A DNA stretch of 42,294 nucleotides from a virus (lineage: Duplodnaviria > Heunggongvirae > Uroviricota > Caudoviricetes). Location of the stretch: IMG/VR virus record IMGVR_UViG_3300003310_000099, positions 1 to 42,294 of that record; one strand, written 5' to 3'. The notes beneath the pieces were generated by a model that did no database searches, had not been told where the DNA came from, and saw only the letters and a list, made by a program, of their open reading frames with translations. Numbering within the stretch: the first letter of the stretch is position 1; every line of letters begins with the position of its first letter. Of the stretch, positions 24,405-36,430 are shown in pieces. Made by a program: the position numbers and the translations under genes.

Positions 24405-24524
24405 GGCCAAGTAGCTAAAGAAGATCGCTTTGGTGACTCAGACAAGTGATTGTCTCCAACCCTGAAGCTTACAAGCAATAGTCAGTAAAACTAGAGAATG
24501 TTGGTGCAAATCCAACCTTGGCCG
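24405..24524 (+). ncRNA. module 1 (type B): tRNA-like RNA with Y-like module inserted in the D-loop
   Basis: acceptor GGCCAAG/CTTGGCC; D-stem GCT/AGC; insert GACTCAGACA-agtgat-TGTCTCCAA...GCTTACAAGC; anticodon loop CAGTAAA (GTA, non-canonical A33); T-arm GTTGG-TGCAAAT-CCAAC. Confidence 0.8.
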
Positions 24525-24530
24525 CTAGTA

Positions 24531-24600
24531 GCGTCCCCTAAAGGAAGAACTTACAAACAACAAGGTTATGTTTAAATGATAGTTCTTTAAACTTGGACGC
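24531..24600 (+). ncRNA. module 2 (type A): minimal Y-RNA-like RNA
   Basis: GCGTCC/GGACGC terminal helix, GAAGAAC/GTTCTTT inner helix, TTACAAAC, followed by a T-run. Confidence 0.8.
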
Positions 24601-24611
24601 AACTTTTTTTC

Positions 24612-24660
24612 AAAAAGAACTTGACAAACCTTAAAGACAGTAGTATGATAGGTAAGTCAG
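24612..24660 (+). promoter_or_regulatory. repeated promoter cassette copy 2
   Basis: TTGACA-N17-TATGAT within the same repeat. Confidence 0.8.
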
Positions 24661-24662
24661 GT

Positions 24663-24705
24663 GAGTGGAAGTCCTTAAAGAATGATTATGGACTATGCCA
24701 CACAA
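24663..24705 (+). repeat. 43-nt hairpin repeat copy 1
   Basis: GAGTGGAAGTCCTTAAAGAATGATTATGGACTATGCCACACAA; second copy at 25434. Confidence 0.8.
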
Positions 24706-24757
24706 GGATGGGAAAAGTGCTGAAGACTGTCGTTAGGCAGCGTTCAAGCACAACGCT

Positions 24758-24881
24758 GGGGGATAAAGAAAGCTTTGATGACTTGGACAAGAAATTGTCC
24801 CCAACGGTTTGAGCTTACAAACTTTAAGGTAAAGAAAAGACTTTTAATCTTTTTAAGTGGGTTCAACTCCCACATCCTCCA
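24758..24881 (+). ncRNA. module 3 (type B): tRNA-Lys(TTT) with Y-like module inserted between acceptor stem and D-arm
   Basis: GGGGGAT/ATCCTCC; insert GACTTGGACAA-gaaa-TTGTCCCCAA...GCTTACAAAC; D-arm CTTT-AAGGT-AAAG; AAAGA-CTTTTAA-TCTTT; GTGGG-TTCAACT-CCCAC. Confidence 0.8.
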
Positions 24882-24953
24882 CTAAGGCTTATCACTGAGC
24901 CTGGATTTTGTGTGACGGTCGCCTAGACCCAGAGCAAAACGATCAGTGAACAC

Positions 24954-25064
24954 GGGGTTTAAAAAGGCTTGGAGAACTTAGACAGGAAACTGTCTCCCAC
25001 TTTTTAAGCTTACATACTGGAAAGCAAGGAAACTTGCAAGTTGGTTCGAGTCCAACAAACCCCG
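24954..25064 (+). ncRNA. module 4 (type B): anticodon-less tRNA-like RNA with Y-like insert
   Basis: GGGGTTT/AAACCCC; AACTTAGACAG-gaaa-CTGTCTCCC...GCTTACATAC; GCAAG-GAAA-CTTGC replaces the anticodon arm; GTTGG-TTCGAGT-CCAAC. Confidence 0.8.
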
Positions 25065-25068
25065 CTAA

Positions 25069-25201
25069 CTGTCTCCTATGTTGGGAACTTACAAACATCA
25101 AGTGGGTTCGACTCCCATCAGCAGTTCGCTGCTGTAGCCTAACGGTCAGGCAACTGGCTTTTAACCAGTCTTAAAAAGACGAGTTTTCATGACTTAGACA
25201 G
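25069..25201 (+). ncRNA. module 5 (type A): Y-like stem enclosing a circularly permuted tRNA-Lys(TTT) (YrlA-like order)
   Basis: CTGTCT/AGACAG ends; inside: T-arm GTGGG-TTCGACT-CCCAT, acceptor CAGCAG-TTCG-CTGCTG, D-arm GCCT-AACGGTC-AGGC, ACTGG-CTTTTAA-CCAGT. Confidence 0.85.
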
Positions 25202-25209
25202 TTAATTTT

Positions 25210-25342
25210 GCCAAGGTAGTCTAAAAAACTATTAGTTACAGTGACTTAGACAAGTAATTGTCTCCAATGGTTGTAACTTACAAACAGGTAAGACGTTATC
25301 CTCATAAGGTAAAGTTTGTTGGTTCAAATCCAACCCTTGGCA
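25210..25342 (+). ncRNA. module 6 (type B): tRNA(CAT) with Y-like module inserted in the D-loop
   Basis: GCCAAGG/CCTTGGC; D-stem GTCT/AGAC; insert GTTACA-GTGACTTAGACAA-gtaa-TTGTCTCCAA-tggt-TGTAAC-TTACAAAC; TTATC-CTCATAA-GGTAA; GTTGG-TTCAAAT-CCAAC. Confidence 0.85.
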
Positions 25343-25380
25343 CTGAAAGATTCTTCTTGACAAATAAGAAAACTTTTTTC

Positions 25381-25429
25381 AAAAAGAACTTGACAAACCT
25401 TGAAAACGATGGTAAGATAGGTGAGTCAG
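25381..25429 (+). promoter_or_regulatory. repeated promoter cassette copy 3
   Basis: TTGACA(25390)-N17-TAAGAT. Confidence 0.8.
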
Positions 25430-25433
25430 ATAC

Positions 25434-25476
25434 GAGTGGAAGTCCTTAAAGAATGATTAGGGATTATGCCACACAA
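25434..25476 (+). repeat. 43-nt hairpin repeat copy 2
   Basis: differs from 24663..24705 at two positions. Confidence 0.8.
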
Positions 25477-25503
25477 AGAAGAAAAAGATAGTAGAATGAG
25501 GTT

Positions 25504-25568
25504 GTGGGAGTAGCTCAATGGAGAGCGCCAGTATACTGGAGACGTTGGTTCAAACCCAATCTTCCGCT
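25504..25568 (+). ncRNA. tRNA-like RNA lacking an anticodon loop
   Basis: GTGGGAG/CTTCCGC; GCTC-AATGGA-GAGC; CCAG-TATA-CTGG (4-nt loop); GTTGG-TTCAAAC-CCAAT. Confidence 0.7.
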
Positions 25569-25570
25569 TT

Positions 25571-25697
25571 TGTCTGTCACCGATGTTGAGAACTTACATA
25601 CAATTAGCTCAGTAGATGAGCGTAACTAAGCAGAAGTTAAGGACGTGGGTGCGAATCCCACATTGTTAAAAATCAGTTTTCATGACTTGGACAGACA
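25571..25697 (+). ncRNA. module 7 (type A): Y-like stem enclosing a degenerate tRNA
   Basis: TGTCTGTC/GACAGACA; GAGAAC/GTTTTC; ACTTACATAC; GCTC-AGTAGAT-GAGC; TAACT-AAGCAGA-AGTTA; GTGGG-TGCGAAT-CCCAC; T-run follows. Confidence 0.8.
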
Positions 25698-25716
25698 TTT
25701 TTTTTATATATTGACG

Positions 25717-26208
25717 ATGGGTGTGGATAAAAAGTTTGAGCAGTTAGGTTGTAATTTAGGAAGTGCCGCAATCAAATTGAGAAAGTTAGTTCTTTTTGAT
25801 TTGATTGTTAAGTTTGGTCTAAATAAATGTTATCGGTGCGGTAAAGTGATTGATGCTGTCGATGACTTTACTTTAGATCACAAGATTGATTGGTTAGACT
25901 CGGCTAATCCTGAAGAGTTGTTTTTTGATGTTTCTAATGTAGCTTTTAGTCATGCTCTTTGCAATACATTGGCTAGACGAACGCCAAATAAGGTTAGAGG
26001 TAAAGTAGGTTTTAAGGGTGTTTATTTTGATTCGGGGAGAAAAAAACCTTATAAGGCAGAGTTAGAAACTAAAATCAACGGTGAAAAGAAAGTCTACAGG
26101 TTAGGTAGATTTGGTACAGCAGAAGAAGCAGCTTTGGCTTATGATTTGAAAGCCAAAGAAATTTTAGGAAATCGAGCTATATCAAATCATGATATGGGCT
26201 TGATATGA
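25717..26208 (+). mobile_element. HNH-AP2 (homing-type) endonuclease CDS inserted in the RNA array
   Basis: CYRCG...LDHK...N...SHALCN (HNH with Zn site) followed by GFKGVYFD...RLGRFGTAEEAALAYD (AP2). Confidence 0.85.
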
Positions 26209-26273
26209 GGGGCGGTAGCTTAGCGTTTAAAGCATTAGTCTTATAGACTAAAGATCGAATCCATCCCGCCCCA
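26209..26273 (+). pseudogene. degenerate tRNA (TAT loop) missing the 5' strand of the T-stem
   Basis: GGGGCGG/CCGCCCC; GCTT/AAGC; TTAGT-CTTATAG-ACTAA; then only AGATCGAATCCATC. Confidence 0.65.
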
Positions 26274-26276
26274 CTA

Positions 26277-26607
26277 CACTGTTTCCAACCTTTGGAGCTT
26301 ACAAACTTTGGAGGTTCTAAGGTAGCGAGTTTGCTTGGTTTACGACTTACCCATAGTGGTAAGTGGAGCTTCCAAGCAGCGAATCCAGGTGTAATCGCAA
26401 GATTGCTAATGGATAGTAAGGTGTGAACCTTTCCCGCGATTTCACGGTCAGTCTTCTACGGAAGCCTGAAAAGGTGGTCGAGAGTTAACATAATAGTTGA
26501 CTCACTTGGCGAAAGCCAAGGGCCGATTGGCTTGAGTGTAAACGGATGGGCAACCATCACGCACGACCACAAATAATTGCTCTTATGCTCTGGAAACTTA
26601 GACAGTG
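26277..26607 (+). ncRNA. module 8 (type A): Y-like stem enclosing a ~280-nt structured RNA
   Basis: CACTGTTT/AGACAGTG; GGAGC/GCTCT; CTTACAAAC; internal GNRA hairpins; T-run follows. Confidence 0.75.
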
Positions 26608-26653
26608 TTATTTTTTTAGCTATAGCCCAAGAAAATTGGGTAAGCATAGATCA

Positions 26654-26709
26654 GTTGTCAAAACTTAGAAGGCTCGCCCAACCTTCTCCCATGCGGACAA
26701 CTTACAAAC
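26654..26709 (+). ncRNA. module 9 (type B hairpin, no tRNA flanks recognised)
   Basis: GTTGTC/GACAAC; ACTTAGAAGG...CCTTCTCCC (compensated P1); TTACAAAC. Confidence 0.7.
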
Positions 26710-26786
26710 CAACAAAGATTTAACCTTGGAGAACGAACATGAAGATGGACTATGGTTGACGTAGCAGCTTAGGGTTAGACCCATTT

Positions 26787-26837
26787 GCTGCTAAAACTTA
26801 GACAGGAAACTGTCTCCAAACATAGTAGCTTACAAAC
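26787..26837 (+). ncRNA. module 10 (type B hairpin)
   Basis: GCTGCTA/TAGTAGC; ACTTAGACAG-gaaa-CTGTCTCC; TTACAAAC. Confidence 0.75.
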
Positions 26838-26923
26838 TTGAAGAATAAATCTTAAATTAGGAGTTAACACCATGCGAAAGATGGATAGCGGTTAATCTTG
26901 AAAGTTATCGGGAGTAATTCCCA

Positions 26924-26974
26924 GCTGCTAAAACTTGGATGCGAAAGCGTCCCCAAACTTAGAAGCCTACAAAC
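26924..26974 (+). ncRNA. module 11 (type B hairpin)
   Basis: GCTGCTA...ACTTGGATGC-gaaa-GCGTCCCC...TAGAAGC-CTACAAAC; isolated T-arm GTTGG-TTCAAAT-CCAAC at 27053-27069. Confidence 0.7.
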
Positions 26975-27079
26975 TTTTTAAAGATGCCAAGTGCAAATTG
27001 TTAGAAAAATGCCCATGTAATGTACAATGAGGCGTGAAAAGGTAGTAATGAAGTTGGTTCAAATCCAACACGCGCTAAT

Positions 27080-27200
27080 TTCCGTCCCCTACAAGGTTAG
27101 TTTACAAACATAGCTCATTAGTAGAGCGCAACCATTAGAAGGTTGAAGTAATTGGTGCGAATCCAATTGTTTCTCGATAGCTGACTAAACTTGGACGGAA
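27080..27200 (+). ncRNA. module 12 (type A): Y-like stem enclosing a degenerate tRNA
   Basis: TTCCGTCC/GGACGGAA; TTTACAAAC; GCTC-ATTAGTA-GAGC; CAACC-ATTAGAA-GGTTG; ATTGG-TGCGAAT-CCAAT; 5-bp acceptor AAACA/TGTTT. Confidence 0.8.
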
Positions 27201-27204
27201 CAAT

Positions 27205-27276
27205 GTCGGTGTAGCCAAGCGGTAAGGCATCAGTCTGCAAAGCTGATTACCGTAGGTTCGAATCCTACCGCCGACT
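27205..27276 (+). tRNA. tRNA-Cys(GCA)
   Basis: canonical cloverleaf GTCGGTG/CGCCGAC, TCAGT-CTGCAAA-GCTGA, GTAGG-TTCGAAT-CCTAC, U73 discriminator; CCA not encoded. Confidence 0.92.
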
Positions 27277-27289
27277 TTAAGGTAATATA

Positions 27290-27493
27290 ATGTTAATCTG
27301 CGATAATGGGAATAAGTGTGGGAAGGGTAAAGTGCCATCATGCACTAACCAAGCCATACATATTATCCATACCGTAGATGACAAAGGCAATATAATAGAA
27401 GGGCCAGTCATCAATTTGTGTGATGAACATTTTGATGTGGCAATGCGGTTGGGACTTGTTACTGAGCCGTATATGGGATACGAAGTAACTTGA
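27290..27493 (+). CDS. small hypothetical protein (Cys/His)
   Basis: 67-aa ORF after tRNA-Cys. Confidence 0.45.
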   Translation: MLICDNGNKCGKGKVPSCTNQAIHIIHTVDDKGNIIEGPVINLCDEHFDVAMRLGLVTEPYMGYEVT

Positions 27494-27517
27494 CAATGCG
27501 GAAAATTGTGGTATAGT
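27490..27517 (+). promoter_or_regulatory. sigma70-type promoter for the Ubl-like gene
   Basis: TTGACA-N16-TATAGT. Confidence 0.7.
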
Positions 27518-27550
27518 AAGAGTGGAGACGACAAAGAGGAGGAAGGGAAA

Positions 27551-27784
27551 ATGGAAAATCAAGTAATTGACGCAGTACCTCAGATTCACATTCGCTACGA
27601 CGGTCGTAGCATTGACATTCCTTTGAGCGAAGTAGACGTTGGTGTTCTGTCTACGGACGAACAGATTCGTGCTGCTGTCGCTGAGAACCTTGGTGTGCCA
27701 GTCGGAAAGCTTCGCGCTTTCGCCATCGACCGCAACCAAGAGACGAATCACCTGACCCTTCGTCCAGAAGCGGTTTGGGGTTGA
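27551..27784 (+). CDS. putative ubiquitin-like (beta-grasp) small protein ending in Gly (...LRPEAVWG)
   Basis: 77 aa from ATG 27551 with purine-rich SD; beta-beta-alpha-beta-beta pattern (IHIRY-SIDIP-helix DEQIRAAVAENL-FAID-LTLR); C-terminal Gly. Confidence 0.6.
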   Translation: MENQVIDAVPQIHIRYDGRSIDIPLSEVDVGVLSTDEQIRAAVAENLGVPVGKLRAFAIDRNQETNHLTLRPEAVWG

Positions 27785-27870
27785 AATTTTTGATCCCCAG
27801 GCATGGGGCTGACTTGGTGGGGAGTTATGAAAAGAATTGCCAAGTGATAATTAGGAACCATGCCAAATTT

Positions 27871-28001
27871 GCGGGAGTAGCTGAATAGTAAATAGTTTTT
27901 TATACTTAGACGGGCTAAACTCCGTCTCCGACTTGAAAAACTTACAAACAAGCGTCAGTATTCTAAACTGAAGTATGTGGGTGCGACTCCCACCTCCCGC
28001 T
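27871..28001 (+). ncRNA. module 13 (type B): tRNA-Arg(TCT)-like RNA with Y-like module in the D-loop
   Basis: GCGGGAG/CTCCCGC; GCT/AGC; AGTTTTT/AAAAACT; ACTTAGACGG...CCGTCTCC; CTTACAAAC; TCAGT-ATTCTAA-ACTGA; GTGGG-TGCGACT-CCCAC. Confidence 0.8.
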
Positions 28002-28002
28002 C

Positions 28003-28186
28003 TTTTTCCTGATAGTGCCAGCACCGACCCCGAAATGTTACCAAACAGGGGTGGTAAACGGCGGGTAACACCGCTAGTCCCTTTGACCGCTCAAGAGTTG
28101 GCTGATTACTCTTCGGAGGAAAAACAGCTTTTGGGCAACAACCCTGTTCCTCAACATAAAGTGTTGGGGTGGCCGTTCAGGAAAAA
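28003..28186 (+). ncRNA. unidentified structured RNA
   Basis: 10-bp closing stem TTTTTCCTGA/TCAGGAAAAA; hairpins; TGTTAC/GTAACA loop-loop complementarity. Confidence 0.55.
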
Positions 28187-28187
28187 T

Positions 28188-28254
28188 TCCGTCTCCTAAA
28201 AAGGAAGCTTACAAACTAGCCAATGTTTAACACAGCTTCCTAAACTAAGACGGA
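28188..28254 (+). ncRNA. module 14 (type A): minimal Y-RNA-like RNA
   Basis: TCCGTCT/AGACGGA; AGGAAGCT/AGCTTCCT; CTTACAAAC; T-rich tail. Confidence 0.8.
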
Positions 28255-28277
28255 TTTATTTTTATTTTAAGTGACTT

Positions 28278-28405
28278 GTTTTGTCCCCAATGTTGAGAAC
28301 TTACAAACAATTTGCTCAACGGTAGAGCATCAACCTCCAAAGTTGAAAGTGTTGGTTCAAATCCAGCATTGTTTACCAAAACAGTTTTCAAGACTTGGAC
28401 GAAAC
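28278..28405 (+). ncRNA. module 15 (type A): Y-like stem enclosing an intact tRNA-Trp
   Basis: GTTTTGTCC/GGACGAAAC; GAGAAC/GTTTTC; ACTTACAAAC overlaps the tRNA 5' end. Confidence 0.85.
28305..28378 (+). tRNA. tRNA-Trp(CCA) with encoded CCA end, nested in module 15
   Basis: AAACAAT/ATTGTTT-A-CCA; GCTC-AACGGTA-GAGC; TCAAC-CTCCAAA-GTTGA; GTTGG-TTCAAAT-CCAGC. Confidence 0.8.
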
Positions 28406-28409
28406 GAGA

Positions 28410-28501
28410 TGGCTAGTAGCTTAACGGTAAAGCACTTGCTAAGTCGGGCGTTAAAACCTGACCTGTAAGAAGAAGTAGGGTTCAACTCCCTGCCTGGCCA
28501 C
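28410..28501 (+). ncRNA. tRNA-like RNA with extended anticodon arm
   Basis: TGGCTAG/CTGGCCA; GCTT-AACGGTA-AAGC; CTTGC/GTAAG plus internal loop plus GTCGGG-CGTTAAAA-CCTGAC; TAGGG-TTCAACT-CCCTG. Confidence 0.7.
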
Positions 28502-28503
28502 TT

Positions 28504-28574
28504 TCTGTCCCCTATAGGTAAAACTTACAAACATTACCAATGACGATGCTAAAAGTTTTACAAACTTGGACAGA
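28504..28574 (+). ncRNA. module 16 (type A): minimal Y-RNA-like RNA
   Basis: TCTGTCC/GGACAGA; GTAAAACT/AGTTTTAC; CTTACAAAC. Confidence 0.8.
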
Positions 28575-28592
28575 CTAATATTCAAGAAAATT

Positions 28593-28660
28593 TCCGTCCC
28601 CTATAAGAAGAACTTACAAACACTCAATTATCGTTTAACAGTTCTTTTGACTTGGACGGA
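28593..28660 (+). ncRNA. module 17 (type A): minimal Y-RNA-like RNA
   Basis: TCCGTCC/GGACGGA; GAAGAAC/GTTCTTT; CTTACAAAC; T-run follows. Confidence 0.8.
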
Positions 28661-28825: not shown

Positions 28826-28850
28826 AACTAGGACAGGAAACTGTCCCCAA
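28826..28850 (+). promoter_or_regulatory. P1-type hairpin of the array module adjacent to the TROVE SD
   Basis: AACTAGGACAG-gaaa-CTGTCCCCAA then c-AAGGAG-N8-ATG. Confidence 0.7.
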
Positions 28851-28865
28851 CAAGGAGAATTGAAA

Positions 28866-30368
28866 ATGGCTAATACTGAAATTGATACCCGTCTCAACAT
28901 CCTTAACACCCTGTTGACCACTCCTCACTGTAAGCTGGATCAGGTTTACCCGATTCACGCTGAGATGATTAAGCAAGACCCGTTATTCTACGGTCGTTTG
29001 GGTGCATGGTACAATGACACTGGTGACGTTCGTGACCACAAGGAAATGTTCGTCATCAACATGTGCCTGAGTGACTTTGAAGGCCACCGTGACGCTGGAT
29101 TGGCAATGCTGCGTGAAATGCCACCGTACCAGCTTGGCCGTGTCGTAGACTTCATCCACGGTCGTAAGGACACTAAGAAGTCCAAGGCCAAGAAGGGTGA
29201 AACTCCAACCACGACGGTTGAAAACTACGGTTTGTTCAAGAACATTCCGCGTTCCGTCAAGACGGAAGTGGTTCGTTATCTCCGTGAACGTGAAGCGGAA
29301 CCAGAGTGGTTCGATTCTTGCGCCGTCACTGCGCGTAAGTATTTGAAGCGTCTCTATGCTCTCATGCACATTAGCCCAAATGAGCGTGCGCAGAAGATTC
29401 TCTTTGAAGATTTGCCGCCAGAAGATTCCAAGCTGTTCGCAGTGAAGGAACTCTTCAAGGCGAAGACGCCAGCGGAACAGGCCAAGACGATCATGGCGCA
29501 CAAGATTCCGTACCGTATCGCTTCGACGGTCGTTTCTGCCATGACTCCGACCGTACTCTTGGCTTTGATTGAAGTTATGTCGGATATGGAGTTAATCAAT
29601 AACCTTGGTTCTCTCCGTAAGCGTGGTGCATTTGAGAATCCAGACCTCAAGGCACTCATTGAGAAGAAGCTTGAGAAGGCCAAGTCTGGTAAGCGTGTTT
29701 CGGCACTCAAGGCAACTGAAGCCGTTAAGTCGGCTGGTGTTGATGATGCTACGGTCAAGCAACTGGAAGCGGTTGCTGACTCGCAGTTGAAGAAGAAGGG
29801 CCGTATCAATCGCTCTACTGCACTGCTGATTGATAAGTCTGGCTCCATGAGTCAGGCTATCGAATTGGGCAAGCAGATTGGTTCGATGATTTCTGCTATC
29901 ATGGATGCAGATTTGTATGTATACGCTTTCGACACGATGGCGTATCCCCTCAAGGCACAGGGCACCGACCTTGCTTCCTGGGACAAGGCATTGCGTGGTA
30001 TCAACGCTGGGGGTGGAACCTCTTGCGGTGTGCCTCTTGAGTACATGATTCGCAACAAGCAGCTTGCGGAGAACATTATCGTCATCACGGACGAAGGCGA
30101 AAACGGTACTCCTGCATTCGTGCCGACCCTGAAGAAGTACATGGCTGAACTCAAGGCAACCCCTTCTGTCTGCTTTGTAAAGACTACGGGTGCATCGAAT
30201 CAGCTTGAACAGCAGATGCAGCGTGAAGGACTGAACTGTGACGCCTGGCAGTTCAGTGGGGATTACTACAGTCTGCCCAACTTGATCCCCTACCTGTCCA
30301 AGCCATCGAAGGTCGATCTTCTGATGGAAATCATGTGTTACGAAATGCCTGTCCGCAAGACGGCATAA
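28866..30368 (+). CDS. Ro60-like TROVE + vWA domain RNA-binding protein
   Basis: N-terminal helical region (QDPLFYGRL...DVRDHKE; MSDMELINNLGSL resembling the Ro60 MPxxALLRNLG motif) and C-terminal vWA MIDAS (LLIDKSGSM, GGGTSCG, VITDEGEN); SD AAGGAG; biased codon usage (CGT, AAG). Confidence 0.75.
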   Translation: MANTEIDTRLNILNTLLTTPHCKLDQVYPIHAEMIKQDPLFYGRLGAWYNDTGDVRDHKEMFVINMCLSDFEGHRDAGLAMLREMPPYQLGRVVDFIHGRKDTKKSKAKKGETPTTTVENYGLFKNIPRSVKTEVVRYLREREAEPEWFDSCAVTARKYLKRLYALMHISPNERAQKILFEDLPPEDSKLFAVKELFKAKTPAEQAKTIMAHKIPYRIASTVVSAMTPTVLLALIEVMSDMELINNLGSLRKRGAFENPDLKALIEKKLEKAKSGKRVSALKATEAVKSAGVDDATVKQLEAVADSQLKKKGRINRSTALLIDKSGSMSQAIELGKQIGSMISAIMDADLYVYAFDTMAYPLKAQGTDLASWDKALRGINAGGGTSCGVPLEYMIRNKQLAENIIVITDEGENGTPAFVPTLKKYMAELKATPSVCFVKTTGASNQLEQQMQREGLNCDAWQFSGDYYSLPNLIPYLSKPSKVDLLMEIMCYEMPVRKTA

Positions 30369-35415: not shown

Positions 35416-35738
35416 TGAGAATCTGTGATATCATCAAACCCAATATACCTTGCCGCTTGGAACACCCCATTGTTGGTGAGGTATATTGGGGCATCAAGGA
35501 CGGTTGTTGGGGTTTGTATTTTGCCAAGGGTTATGATGCTCATAAATTCCTTGTCGCTGATGATGCCGTTTTAATGAGTGATGAATGGAAGCAAACAAAC
35601 AAGTTAAGCTCTGAAGACTTGGCTGGACTTATCGCTGACGCACTCATTCCCAAGTTCTTTATGAAGGAATGGTACGCTAAGGCGGTTAAAGTTATTGCTG
35701 AGGAAATTGACGCTAGAAAGGCAATGGGTGACTACTAA
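35415..35738 (+). CDS. hypothetical protein
   Basis: TAATG overlap. Confidence 0.6.
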   Translation: MRICDIIKPNIPCRLEHPIVGEVYWGIKDGCWGLYFAKGYDAHKFLVADDAVLMSDEWKQTNKLSSEDLAGLIADALIPKFFMKEWYAKAVKVIAEEIDARKAMGDY

Positions 35739-36430
35739 TGATGAATGAACAGTGTTGGGTTTTGGTTGGGGGAATTAATGGCGACCTTTGGTGGGGTGAG
35801 AAGTTTGGTCCTCAACATGAAGGTACGCCTGCCAGTGTTGCTTTTGACCCAGACTTTGTAACTAAGCGTGAAGAGGAACATGGTGATGTGGTAGGATTTA
35901 TCCACACTCACCCAAGTTTTACTGCGCATTATAGTATGCGTGATGATCGCACCATGAAGGCTTGGGTTTTATCTTTGGGTAAGCCTCTTGTCTGTTGTAT
36001 TATTGGCACGGATGGGCTGCGCGCATTTTGGTACAACAATGACGAAGACCCGCCAACTGAGGAAACAGTTCACTCTCTTCGTGGTGCGATCTTTGGGCTT
36101 ACACCACCAGAAGATTTTGAGCCTGAAAAAGATGATTTTTCAGATTTGATTATTGATGAACCACCACCTAGTCTGGGTGTAAACCAGCTTGTAAAGGTTA
36201 TTGCTGGTAAACATCAAGGGGTAGAAGGTAGAGTACAGTTTTATCAGACTGAAGGTGAAGGCGGGAGAATAAGGGTACGTCTTGCTGATGGTAGCCAAAT
36301 CTATGTTGATAAAGAAGATATAGATTTTAAGTTTGAGTATATCGACGCAGAGGTAATGATGGATGAAGAGGAACGTGAAGCTTTCCATCAGCAAATCAAG
36401 GAAATAAAAGAAGGTGAATATTTATCATGA
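35738..36430 (+). CDS. JAB/MPN+ (JAMM) metalloprotease with C-terminal KOW-like domain
   Basis: VVGFIHTHPSFTAHYSMRD = HxH-x7-S-x2-D; LVKVIAGKHQGVEGRV (KOW). Confidence 0.8.
   Translation: MMNEQCWVLVGGINGDLWWGEKFGPQHEGTPASVAFDPDFVTKREEEHGDVVGFIHTHPSFTAHYSMRDDRTMKAWVLSLGKPLVCCIIGTDGLRAFWYNNDEDPPTEETVHSLRGAIFGLTPPEDFEPEKDDFSDLIIDEPPPSLGVNQLVKVIAGKHQGVEGRVQFYQTEGEGGRIRVRLADGSQIYVDKEDIDFKFEYIDAEVMMDEEEREAFHQQIKEIKEGEYLS

What the first reader, a model, noticed from the sequence alone, without database searches (positions are those of the whole stretch)
25069..25201. Circularly permuted tRNA-Lys(UUU) inside a Y-like stem
Inside the P1/P2 stem the order is T-arm, then acceptor stem closed by a UUCG tetraloop (CAGCAG-TTCG-CTGCTG), then D-arm, then a full anticodon arm with CTTTTAA. 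This is a tRNA opened at the variable loop with its ends sealed. Established: YrlA Y RNAs have a permuted tRNA-like domain with a closed acceptor stem, but there the anticodon stem is replaced by the Ro-binding stem. Here the Lys(UUU) anticodon arm is kept, and tRNA-Lys(UUU) is the known target of the PrrC anticodon nuclease. Inference: a non-chargeable tRNA-Lys mimic, a plausible nuclease decoy.
Basis: partly seen in the sequence, partly recalled or inferred. Interest (0 to 1): 0.82.

Follow-up and report, generated by a model that had tools for sequence, protein, structure and literature searches.

The report
Phage Y RNA: sealed, permuted tRNA-Lys mimic
A 373-kb phage encodes, 3.7 kb upstream of its own Ro60 protein gene, a small RNA built as a complete tRNA turned inside out, with its amino-acid end sealed and a lysine anticodon loop kept; it is a new variant of the known tRNA-mimicking Y RNAs, and whether it decoys tRNA-cutting defence enzymes is untested.

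Summary
Window 25066-25204 (+) folds as a terminal two-helix handle (P1, P2). The handle encloses, in order, a T-arm, a 6-bp acceptor stem closed by UUCG, U8-A9, a D-arm, and a 5-bp anticodon stem with loop CUUUUAA.

On a MAFFT alignment of 18 relatives, 90% of cells pair, against 66% in shuffles, and 28 of 36 pairs show changes on both sides. The 502-aa ORF 3.7 kb downstream on the same strand has the Ro60 fold.

The element is a Y RNA of the YrlA kind but fails YrlA membership on three points:
- Rfam scores 26.3 bits against a cut-off of 69.
- The GNCGAA motif is absent.
- The handle leaves from the variable loop, so a full anticodon arm is kept.

I found 21 such modules. Fifteen of 23 Ro60-bearing phage loci carry at least one.

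In the eight close orthologs the acceptor is always capped by a UUCG or GNRA tetraloop, and the anticodon is Lys in six (UUU five times, CUU once), Ile(UAU) in one and Tyr(GUA) in one.

"Non-chargeable tRNA-Lys mimic" is supported. "Nuclease decoy" remains an inference. The nearest relative has deleted the element.

This scan has noted the same architecture before on other phage DNA (e1-1902222). I rate it a new variant of a known kind.

The parts
24621..24649 (+). Sigma-70-type promoter-like site (TTGACA, 17 nt, TATGAT) of the transcription unit that holds the element. The next such site is at 25390-25418.
   Evidence: 11 of 12 consensus matches. No other promoter-like site lies between it and the element.
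24954..25065 (+). Upstream tRNA-like unit: acceptor GGGGTTT/AAACCCC, a loop-closed copy of the handle, and a T-arm. Its 3' end abuts the element.
   Evidence: Sequence. The same neighbour, ending in a T-arm plus AAACCCC, precedes six of the eight orthologs; L102 and L106 are preceded by a tRNA-like 3' end with a different acceptor strand.
25066..25074 (+). P1 5' strand (TAACTGTCT), carrying the conserved GTCYCC motif (25071-25076).
   Evidence: helix 1: 7 of 9 pairs change on both sides.
25083..25089 (+). P2 5' strand (GGGAACT).
   Evidence: helix 2: 90% paired, 5 of 7 pairs change on both sides.
25090..25101 (+). Single-stranded linker with the conserved TACAAAC. It supplies the 3' part of the variable loop.
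   Evidence: CTTACAAAC repeated along 24468-28621. (nearly invariant columns).
25102..25118 (+). T-arm (5-bp stem, loop TTCGACT).
   Evidence: YrlA model. (helix 3: 99% paired).
25119..25134 (+). Acceptor stem of 6 bp, sealed by a UUCG tetraloop.
   Evidence: (helix 4: 99% paired, 6 of 6 pairs change on both sides). All eight close orthologs have a UUCG or GNRA cap.
25135..25151 (+). U8-A9 and the D-arm (GCCT / AACGGTC / AGGC, with G18 G19).
   Evidence: helix 5.
25153..25169 (+). Anticodon arm: 5-bp stem, loop CUUUUAA, anticodon UUU at 25160-25162.
   Evidence: helix 6: 5 of 5 pairs change on both sides.
25182..25188 (+). P2 3' strand (AGTTTTC).
25189..25204 (+). 3' side of the internal loop, with the conserved ACTTAGAC, and the P1 3' strand (AGACAGTTA). 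It is followed by ATTTT.
   Evidence: ACTYRGAYR: 18 matches against 4.2 expected, 15 of them on + in 24436-28658..
25210..25345 (+). Downstream tRNA-like unit (acceptor GCCAAGG/CCTTGGC) starting 5 nt after the element.
28860..30368 (+). Ro60/Rsr-like protein gene (TROVE ring plus vWA domain), the presumed protein partner.
   Evidence: Pfam vWA_Ro60, E 1.3e-4. PDB TROVE and Ro60 sequence hits. AlphaFold2 model with pLDDT 84.8, and the top 13 Foldseek hits are all Ro60/Rsr at TM 0.55-0.66.

Best explanation
The element is a Y RNA, the small-RNA partner of the phage's own Ro60 protein. It belongs to a phage subfamily that no paper I could search describes.

The two-helix handle (P1, internal loop, P2, then UACAAAC) is shared by about 17 neighbouring modules and is the presumed Ro60-binding site. 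The distal domain is a complete tRNA whose chain is circularly permuted. The 5' and 3' ends leave through the variable loop into the handle, and the acceptor end is sealed by a tetraloop.

Sealing gives RNase P, 3'-end trimming, CCA addition and aminoacylation no ends to act on. The tRNA body therefore stays covalently tied to the Ro60 handle, unlike the genuine tRNAs in the same array that sit between the same handle strands.

The RNA is probably released from a polycistronic transcript in two steps. Processing of the tRNA-like unit that abuts its 5' end defines one end. RNase P cleavage of the unit 5 nt downstream, or termination at the U-run that follows P1 in several orthologs, defines the other.

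The mature particle would display an uncleavable-at-the-ends, non-chargeable tRNA-Lys look-alike with a canonical UUU anticodon loop. I take it to act as a bait or competitor for proteins that read tRNA-Lys, most likely host anticodon-loop nucleases. Ro60 would stabilise it or tether the bound factor.

Shown: the fold, the covariation, the Ro60 fold of the neighbouring gene, and the genomic association. Inferred: Ro60 binding, the processing route, and any effect on nucleases. The confidence given (0.45) is for the whole statement including the anticodon-reading bait role; for the identity alone (Ro60-associated Y RNA with a sealed, permuted, complete tRNA domain) I would say about 0.85.
For: Structure:
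- All six helices covary on an alignment that was not fitted to a model.
- The LR756511 ortholog has compensatory changes in the T, acceptor, D and anticodon stems.

Y-RNA kinship:
- Rfam YrlA aligns the T-arm, closed acceptor and D-arm.
- The element lies 3.66 kb upstream of a protein with the Ro60 fold, on the same strand. This is the criterion Chen et al. 2014 used for YrlA (PMC4201824).

Association tested both ways:
- 15 of 23 loci fetched through the Ro60 protein, or found to hold it, carry at least one such module.
- Of six loci fetched by an RNA pattern alone, four have a Ro60 homolog 0.5-1.4 kb downstream on the same strand.

Sealed end:
- All eight close orthologs cap the acceptor with UUCG or GNRA.
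- Their acceptor stem sequences are only 34-38% alike, yet they always pair.

Anticodon loop:
- CUUUUAA in 5 and CUCUUAA in 1 of the 8 orthologs, over four different stem sequences.
- Loop identity is 83%, against 68% for its own stem.
- Family-wide, 19 of 21 loops have 7 nt. All 19 have a purine at position 37, 18 have A38 and 15 have U33.

Context:
- The phage carries a T4 Rnl1-type RNA ligase, a second RNA ligase, a CCA-adding-like enzyme and 58 tRNAs.
- tRNA-Lys is cut by PrrC and by PARIS AriB (PMC10264068; PMC11464382).
- A Ro60-like protein of phage Bas63 counters a defence system (PMC11482910).
- A competitive-inhibitor role has been proposed for YrlA (PMC7790460).

Processing: the flanking tRNA-like units are conserved in the orthologs, and three orthologs have a U7 run right after P1.
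Against: - There is no transcript, end-mapping, binding or cleavage datum.
- The handle lacks the GNCGAA motif that marks Ro60 binding in YrlA, and neither Rfam Y_RNA nor the YrlA stem positions match it. Ro60 binding therefore rests on context.
- The closest relative (Ro60 94% identical, genome 98% complete) has deleted the element by recombination between two identical handle hairpins. The element is dispensable there.
- Two of eight orthologs carry Ile(UAU) or Tyr(GUA), and more distant members carry other or non-canonical loops. Lys identity is therefore not a family rule.
- Between the window and LR756511 alone, a fully conserved 7-nt loop is not significant: at 77% overall identity the chance is about 0.16.
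- Thermodynamic folding alone does not favour the D and anticodon arms.
- The host and its nucleases are unknown.
Confidence: 0.45

Rival explanations
1. Elbow-only tether (the canonical YrlA reading). The RNA links Ro60 to a protein that recognises the D/T elbow. The anticodon arm is kept only to complete the L-shape. Its loop is a slowly decaying remnant of the tRNA it came from, and its Lys identity has no function.
For: - In YrlA the conserved nucleotides are those of the elbow, and the effector is predicted to read the elbow (10.1101/312249).
- Here the T-loop, the D-loop GG, U8-A9 and A26 are the most conserved positions.
- The anticodon differs among family members, and 4 of the 19 seven-nucleotide loops lack U33 while two further loops have 8 or 9 nt.
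Against: - A purine at position 37 in 19 of 19 seven-nucleotide loops, A38 in 18 and U33 in 15 indicate selection for a real anticodon-loop shape, not just a hairpin.
- Lys is kept in 6 of 8 close orthologs over four different stems.
- Several arrays carry two or three such modules with different anticodons (L090, L095, L099). An elbow-only role does not require that.
Confidence: 0.3
2. A permuted tRNA gene. The transcript is opened at the acceptor loop (RNase P at the 5' side, trimming and CCA addition at the 3' side), giving a two-piece or re-ligated tRNA-Lys that can be charged.
For: - M. smegmatis YrlA, with a 7-bp acceptor stem, is cut by RNase P and gains CCA in vivo (PMC4201824).
- Three distant family members have N-CCA directly after a 7-bp acceptor strand.
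Against: - In the window the stem has 6 bp. That is the length at which Salmonella YrlA was not seen to be cleaved by RNase P, which the authors ascribe to the lack of a 7-bp stem.
- The loop is a 4-nt UUCG with no CCA and no discriminator.
- All eight close orthologs use stable tetraloops.
- The phage has no RtcB.
- It already has three tRNA-Lys(UUU) and two tRNA-Lys(CUU) genes.
- The element is not a recent copy of any of them.
Confidence: 0.05
3. A purely cis-acting piece of the array. The folded module serves as a spacer, processing signal or terminator for the neighbouring tRNA-like units and has no function of its own as a free RNA.
For: - It is wedged between two tRNA-like units with only 0-5 nt of spacer.
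- P1 is followed by a U-run in the window and by U7 in three orthologs.
- The nearest relative does without it.
Against: A spacer or terminator does not need a complete, covarying cloverleaf with tRNA tertiary-contact nucleotides and a canonical anticodon loop. Minimal handle-only modules exist in the same array and also end in U-runs.
Confidence: 0.07
4. The handle binds some protein other than Ro60, for example the conserved 77-aa protein encoded inside the array or a phage RNA-processing enzyme. Its nearness to Ro60 would then reflect a shared pathway rather than a direct complex.
For: - The handle lacks GNCGAA and matches no Rfam Y RNA stem.
- A small conserved ORF lies inside every array looked at.
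Against: - Y RNAs are encoded next to Ro60 in all systems studied (PMC4201824; PMC12135203).
- The handle's GUC and ACUU(R)GAC resemble the two strands of the conserved Ro60-binding helix of animal Y RNAs, as I recall them from my own knowledge; this was not tested here.
- A loop-closed copy of the handle sits on the Ro60 ribosome-binding site (28831-28859).
Confidence: 0.1

Closest known systems
YrlA Y RNAs (Salmonella, M. smegmatis, mycobacteriophages; Rfam RF02553; Chen et al. 2014, PMC4201824; structure preprint 10.1101/312249)
   Same: - Encoded within 4 kb of a Ro60 gene, upstream and on the same strand.
- A terminal stem is formed by the two RNA ends.
- The distal domain runs T-arm, loop-closed acceptor stem, UA, D-arm, with tRNA elbow nucleotides.
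- There is no free CCA end.
   Different: - YrlA has no anticodon loop. Its anticodon stem continues into the Ro60-binding stem, so the tRNA is opened at the anticodon loop. Here a whole anticodon arm is present and the tRNA is opened in the variable loop.
- The GNCGAA motif is absent.
- The Rfam score is 26.3 against a cut-off of 69.
- The element is one of about 17 handle-bearing modules in one array.
Deinococcus radiodurans Yrn1
   Same: It is a Y RNA with a tRNA-like part that includes a possible anticodon arm with a 5-bp stem (PMC4201824).
   Different: In Yrn1 the orientation of the T and D arms relative to the RNA ends differs, and the stem-loop between those arms sits at the anticodon-arm position, not the acceptor position (PMC4201824). 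Its anticodon-like loop has 6 nt. There is no sealed acceptor stem.
Thermus phage phiLo Ro60 with Yrl1 and Yrl2 (PMC12135203)
   Same: A phage Ro60 with Y-like RNAs encoded just upstream. Binding was shown in vitro for that system.
   Different: Those RNAs were found through CGAA motifs and are stem-bulge-stem RNAs. No tRNA domain is described for them.
Circularly permuted tRNA genes (Cyanidioschyzon merolae type)
   Same: The 3' half of the tRNA is encoded before the 5' half, with the acceptor strands joined by a short intervening loop.
   Different: Those genes are matured into ordinary tRNAs by joining the ends and opening the acceptor. Here the ends run into a conserved protein-binding handle, the acceptor is capped by a tetraloop, and there is no CCA. 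This comparison rests on my own knowledge and was not tested against a model.
Phage tRNA-based counter-defence (T4 Rnl1/Pnk repair after PrrC; T5 tRNA-Lys against PARIS; PMC10264068, PMC11464382)
   Same: It concerns the tRNA-Lys anticodon stem-loop, which is a proven target of bacterial defence nucleases. This phage also has an Rnl1-type ligase.
   Different: Those phage tRNAs are functional, chargeable replacements. This RNA cannot be charged and would have to work by binding, not by decoding.
Bas63 gp130, a Ro60-like protein that counters the ppl defence system (preprint PMC11482910)
   Same: A phage Ro60-fold protein sits next to a tRNA cluster, and the authors suspect that some of the annotated tRNAs are Y RNAs. 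It shows that a phage Ro60 can act in counter-defence.
   Different: It is a different phage group. No RNA partner was defined, and ppl is not known to cut tRNA.

Membership tests
YrlA (Rfam RF02553; Chen et al. 2014) | Encoded within about 4 kb of a Ro60/Rsr ortholog on the same strand | tested here: met
   The element ends at 25204 and the ORF starts at 28860, both on the + strand. The Ro60 fold is confirmed.
YrlA (Rfam RF02553; Chen et al. 2014) | tRNA-like domain in the order T-arm, loop-closed acceptor stem, UA, D-arm | tested here: met
   Local alignment to model positions 31-81, with covariation.
YrlA (Rfam RF02553; Chen et al. 2014) | Score at or above Rfam's gathering threshold (69 bits) | tested here: not met
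   26.3 bits. Model positions 1-30 and 82-114 (the stems) do not align.
YrlA (Rfam RF02553; Chen et al. 2014) | GNCGAA(N0-1)G motif on the 5' strand of the terminal stem | tested here: not met
   There is no CGAA in 25066-25101. The conserved 5' motif is GTCYCC.
YrlA (Rfam RF02553; Chen et al. 2014) | No anticodon loop; the anticodon stem is continuous with the Ro60-binding stem | tested here: not met
   A complete 5-bp stem with a 7-nt loop lies at 25153-25169, and the handle leaves from the variable region (10.1101/312249).
YrlA (Rfam RF02553; Chen et al. 2014) | Bound by Rsr/Ro60 and modified by tRNA enzymes (TruB, DusA) | not testable with these tools
Canonical tRNA (Rfam RF00005; ARAGORN) | Cloverleaf with open acceptor stem and a free 3' end; score above threshold | tested here: not met
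   ARAGORN finds nothing here. The Rfam tRNA model gives 26.3 bits against 29, and only through a forced alignment of 25128-25203.
Animal/Deinococcus-type Y RNA (Rfam RF00019) | Match to the conserved bulged Ro60-binding helix | tested here: not met
   No match at E up to 10 on the element or on two minimal handle modules.
Permuted tRNA gene that matures into a tRNA | Processable intervening sequence at the acceptor end, a 7-bp acceptor stem, CCA or a site for it, and a joining activity | tested here: not met
   The stem has 6 bp plus a UUCG loop with no CCA. All eight orthologs have tetraloop caps. The phage has no RtcB. Maturation itself could not be tested.

The most novel reading that the evidence does not exclude
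Phage Ro60 particles carry exchangeable, sealed tRNA baits. The anticodon arm (Lys here; Tyr, Ile, Leu, Arg, Ser or Cys in relatives) would set which host anticodon nuclease, or other anticodon-reading defence protein, is captured or inhibited. That would make this a family of RNA-based, anticodon-specific counter-defence decoys that evolve by swapping the loop.
Probability: 0.2. Interest if true: 0.85.

Novelty: new variant of a known kind. Interest (0 to 1): 0.62.

Why it matters
What bacterial and phage Y RNAs do with their tRNA-like domain is still open, and no effector of YrlA is known. A natural variant that keeps a whole anticodon arm, with a Lys loop conserved in a clade and other anticodons elsewhere, makes the proposal directly testable. 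In this variant the tRNA domain is permanently tied to the Ro60 handle. The proposal is that these RNAs compete with tRNAs for anticodon-directed enzymes. Swapping the loop and measuring binding, cleavage and phage growth would test it. The family is also large: more than 2,900 related Ro60-like proteins turn up in metagenomes. It is missing from Rfam at threshold, so genome annotation currently overlooks it.

Tried and rejected
- Rfam at gathering thresholds gives nothing at the element. Rfam Y_RNA gives nothing even at E 10.
- A recent origin from one of the phage's own 58 tRNAs was rejected. The best local matches are short and spread over Gly, Thr and Asn tRNAs, not Lys.
- A second copy elsewhere in the 373-kb genome was rejected. 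The next-best hit of model R1 is a tandem pair of tRNA-Gly genes at 45.8 bits.
- Splicing by a phage RtcB was rejected, because the phage has no RtcB.
- A small extra hairpin in the 3' linker (GUCUU-AAA-AAGAC) is shared with LR756511 but not with the other orthologs, so I dropped it.
- The first pattern scan mostly returned ordinary tRNA-Val(UAC) genes, because CUUACAA is also that anticodon loop. Only L046 was a true relative.
- Two Wolin-laboratory reviews (PMC10870794, PMC6047535) are not held.
- The contig of P0015 gave no DNA.
- My first target structure for the energy evaluation was off by one base. It is corrected.

Full report
WHAT IS THERE

The window is the first 42 kb of a 373-kb virus record. 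Between 24183 and 28860 there is almost no coding sequence. That stretch is filled with tRNA-like elements on the + strand.

The finding lies at 25066-25204. Read directly, it runs as follows:
- P1 5' strand (25066-25074)
- an internal loop
- P2 5' strand (25083-25089)
- a linker holding TACAAAC (25090-25101)
- T-arm (25102-25118)
- a 6-bp acceptor stem closed by UUCG (25119-25134)
- U8-A9
- D-arm (25137-25151)
- A26
- a 5-bp anticodon stem with loop CUUUUAA (25153-25169)
- a 12-nt linker
- P2 3' strand (25182-25188)
- an internal loop with ACUUAGAC
- P1 3' strand (25196-25204)

ARAGORN does not call it. The Rfam YrlA model aligns only the T-arm, closed acceptor and D-arm, at 26.3 bits against a cut-off of 69.

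IS IT REAL?

The 595-kb phage LR756511 has a Ro60-like protein 71% identical to the window's. It carries an ortholog of the element that is 77% identical. That ortholog shows compensatory changes in four stems:
- T stem: U-A becomes C-G.
- D stem: C-G becomes A-U.
- Anticodon stem: G-C becomes C-G.
- Acceptor stem: a wholly different 7-bp stem capped by GCAA.

The loop CUUUUAA is unchanged.

Two pattern scans of viral contigs gave more relatives. So did loci fetched through the Ro60-like protein. A covariance model built from 11 members (R1) found others at 80-126 bits, including six that were not in the seed.

On a MAFFT alignment of 18 members, which was not fitted to the model, the result is clear:
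- 90.4% of cells pair, against 66.1% in shuffles and 33-46% with partners slid.
- 28 of 36 pairs change on both sides.
- All six helices are supported.

Thermodynamic folding alone recovers P1, P2, the T-arm and the acceptor. It prefers another pairing in the D/anticodon region by 5 kcal/mol. That is common for tRNAs, and the comparative data override it here.

THE PROTEIN PARTNER

The ORF at 28860-30368 gives only weak sequence hits to the Ro60 vWA domain and to TROVE/Ro60 chains. Its AlphaFold2 model has pLDDT 84.8. The model matches Ro60, Rsr and the Thermus phage Ro60 over the full length as its 13 best PDB hits, with TM 0.55-0.66 and E from 2e-11 to 3e-8.

The association with the RNA holds in both directions:
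- 15 of 23 Ro60-bearing loci with enough upstream sequence carry at least one permuted module.
- Four of six loci fetched by RNA pattern alone have a Ro60 homolog just downstream on the same strand.

THE HANDLE

The motifs GTCYCC...CTTACAAAC and ACTTRGAC recur about 17 and 15 times, all on the + strand and only in 24436-28660. In these motifs the Y pairs with the R.

The two halves occur in two arrangements. In one they enclose an insert: nothing, a genuine tRNA-Leu(UAG) or tRNA-Trp(CCA), an aberrant tRNA-like RNA, a 290-nt structured piece, or the permuted tRNA. In the other they are joined by a short loop inside a tRNA-like unit.

The handle lacks the GNCGAA motif of YrlA and matches no Rfam Y RNA. 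Binding to Ro60 is therefore inferred from context. It also rests on a resemblance, recalled from my own knowledge, to the GGUCCGA/UUGACUA helix of animal Y RNAs.

HOW IT DIFFERS FROM YrlA

Published YrlA lacks an anticodon loop, and its anticodon stem runs on into the Ro60-binding stem. In this element the whole anticodon arm is a separate hairpin, and the handle leaves from the variable-loop position. The nucleotide before the T stem is U in most members, which fits an A15-U48 pair. All 21 members found share this wiring.

THE ANTICODON LOOP

In the eight close orthologs (Ro60 70% identical or more) the loop is:
- CUUUUAA in five
- CUCUUAA in one (Lys CUU)
- CUUAUAA in one (Ile UAU)
- CUGUAGA in one (Tyr GUA)

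These loops sit on five different stem sequences, and the six Lys loops on four of them. Loop identity is 83%, stem identity 68%, and acceptor-stem identity 34-38%. All eight cap the acceptor with UUCG or GNRA.

In the wider family:
- 19 of 21 loops have 7 nt.
- All 19 have a purine at position 37.
- 18 have A38.
- 15 have U33.

The anticodons in the wider family include Ile, Leu, Arg, Ser and Cys. The shape of a real anticodon loop is therefore kept family-wide. Lys identity is a feature of this clade only.

MATURATION (INFERRED)

The element lies in a unit that starts at a strong promoter-like site at 24621-24649.
- In six of the eight orthologs it directly follows the 3' end of a tRNA-like unit ending in AAACCCC; in L102 and L106 the preceding tRNA-like 3' end has a different acceptor strand.
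- It is followed either by another tRNA-like unit after 4-7 nt, or by a U-run of five to seven residues and, in three orthologs, a new promoter.

tRNA-type end processing of the neighbours, or termination at P1, would therefore release it with P1 as its terminal stem.

FUNCTION

Sealing the acceptor explains itself. In the genuine tRNAs that sit inside the same handle, RNase P and 3' processing would cut the tRNA away from the handle strands. The permuted, capped form cannot be separated from the handle, and it cannot be CCA-tailed or charged.

What the tethered tRNA-Lys look-alike binds is unknown. Several points favour an anticodon-directed factor:
- The loop signature is conserved, as described above.
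- tRNA-Lys is a proven target of PrrC and PARIS.
- The phage has an Rnl1-type ligase.
- YrlA has been proposed as a competitive inhibitor of an anticodon nuclease.
- A phage Ro60-like protein has been reported to counter a defence system.

Other points count against it:
- There is no experimental datum.
- The anticodon varies across the family.
- The 94%-related phage lost the element through a deletion between two identical handle hairpins, at window 24975 and 26795.

KNOWN OR NEW?

Y RNAs next to phage Ro60 genes are known (PMC4201824, PMC12135203, PMC7824862). I found no paper describing a Y RNA with a sealed acceptor together with a full anticodon arm, nor this handle.

Earlier notes of this scan describe the same wiring in other phages, with the stem leaving from the variable region (e1-1902222 and others). 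I read those notes after reaching the same reading myself.

VERDICT

This is a new variant of a known kind. The structure is solid, Ro60 partnership is likely, and the decoy role is open.

Noticed in passing
window 28831-28859: A loop-closed copy of the handle (GGACAG-GAAA-CTGTCC, then CCAACAAGGAGAA) overlaps the ribosome-binding site of the Ro60-like gene. The protein might regulate its own translation through it.
   Followed up: no
L090:5658-5800, L092:6904-7054, L099:7133-7276: Three distant family members have N-CCA directly after a 7-bp acceptor 3' strand, inside a 6-8-nt acceptor loop. They could be cut by RNase P and end in CCA, as M. smegmatis YrlA does.
   Followed up: partly
window 24970-26745 against L100:5055: The phage with a 94% identical Ro60 lacks this 1.8-kb stretch, which holds the permuted element, an HNH-AP2 endonuclease gene and a 290-nt structured insert. 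The breakpoints are two identical hairpins, AACTTAGACAGGAAACTGTCTCC, so the array is reshaped by recombination between handles.
   Followed up: yes
window 27551-27784 and 35738-36430: A conserved 77-aa ORF ending in Gly lies inside the RNA array, with homologs in L090 and L101-L108. A Prok-JAB gene lies downstream in the window, and JAB plus ThiF genes lie downstream in relatives. This may be a ubiquitin-like conjugation set next to Ro60.
   Followed up: partly
window 27104-27276 and 28305-28378: The genuine tRNAs inside the Ro60 array are Leu(UAG), Cys(GCA) and Trp(CCA). Leu and Trp sit between the two handle strands, so the conserved CTTACAAAC supplies their 5' leader and the first acceptor bases. 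The same three tRNAs are among those cut by the SOS-induced anticodon nuclease of Salmonella (PMC7790460).
   Followed up: no
window 25504-25568, 25598-25669, 26209-26273, 28411-28500: Aberrant tRNA-like genes. One has a 2-nt anticodon loop, one has loop AAGCAGA without U33, one has a truncated T-arm, and one has a 25-nt insert in the anticodon loop.
   Followed up: no
window 25645-26208: An HNH-AP2 homing-endonuclease-like ORF sits between tRNA-like units of the array.
   Followed up: no
window 26298-26604: A handle pair encloses a structured insert of about 290 nt and is followed by a U-run. No Rfam match was found. The insert is 85% conserved in LR756511 (window 26417-26539).
   Followed up: no
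G000:C1:314045-314647, 194818-195336, 333410-333892: The phage encodes a T4 Rnl1-type RNA ligase, a second RNA_ligase-family enzyme and a CCA-adding-like nucleotidyltransferase, but no RtcB.
   Followed up: partly
L019, L026, L036, L038, L041, L060, L064 (positions): Other phage contigs hold a T-arm, a closed 7-9-bp acceptor, TA and a D-arm (often GCTCAGTTGGTAGAGC) with no anticodon hairpin after it. This is the canonical YrlA wiring and makes a useful contrast.
   Followed up: no
L095:6607-7210 (minus strand of the locus): Three tandem permuted modules have 19-23-bp acceptor hairpins and anticodon loops CGUUUAA, AUUGAAC and AUGCAAA. They are encoded divergently from the Ro60 homolog, not on its strand.
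   Followed up: partly
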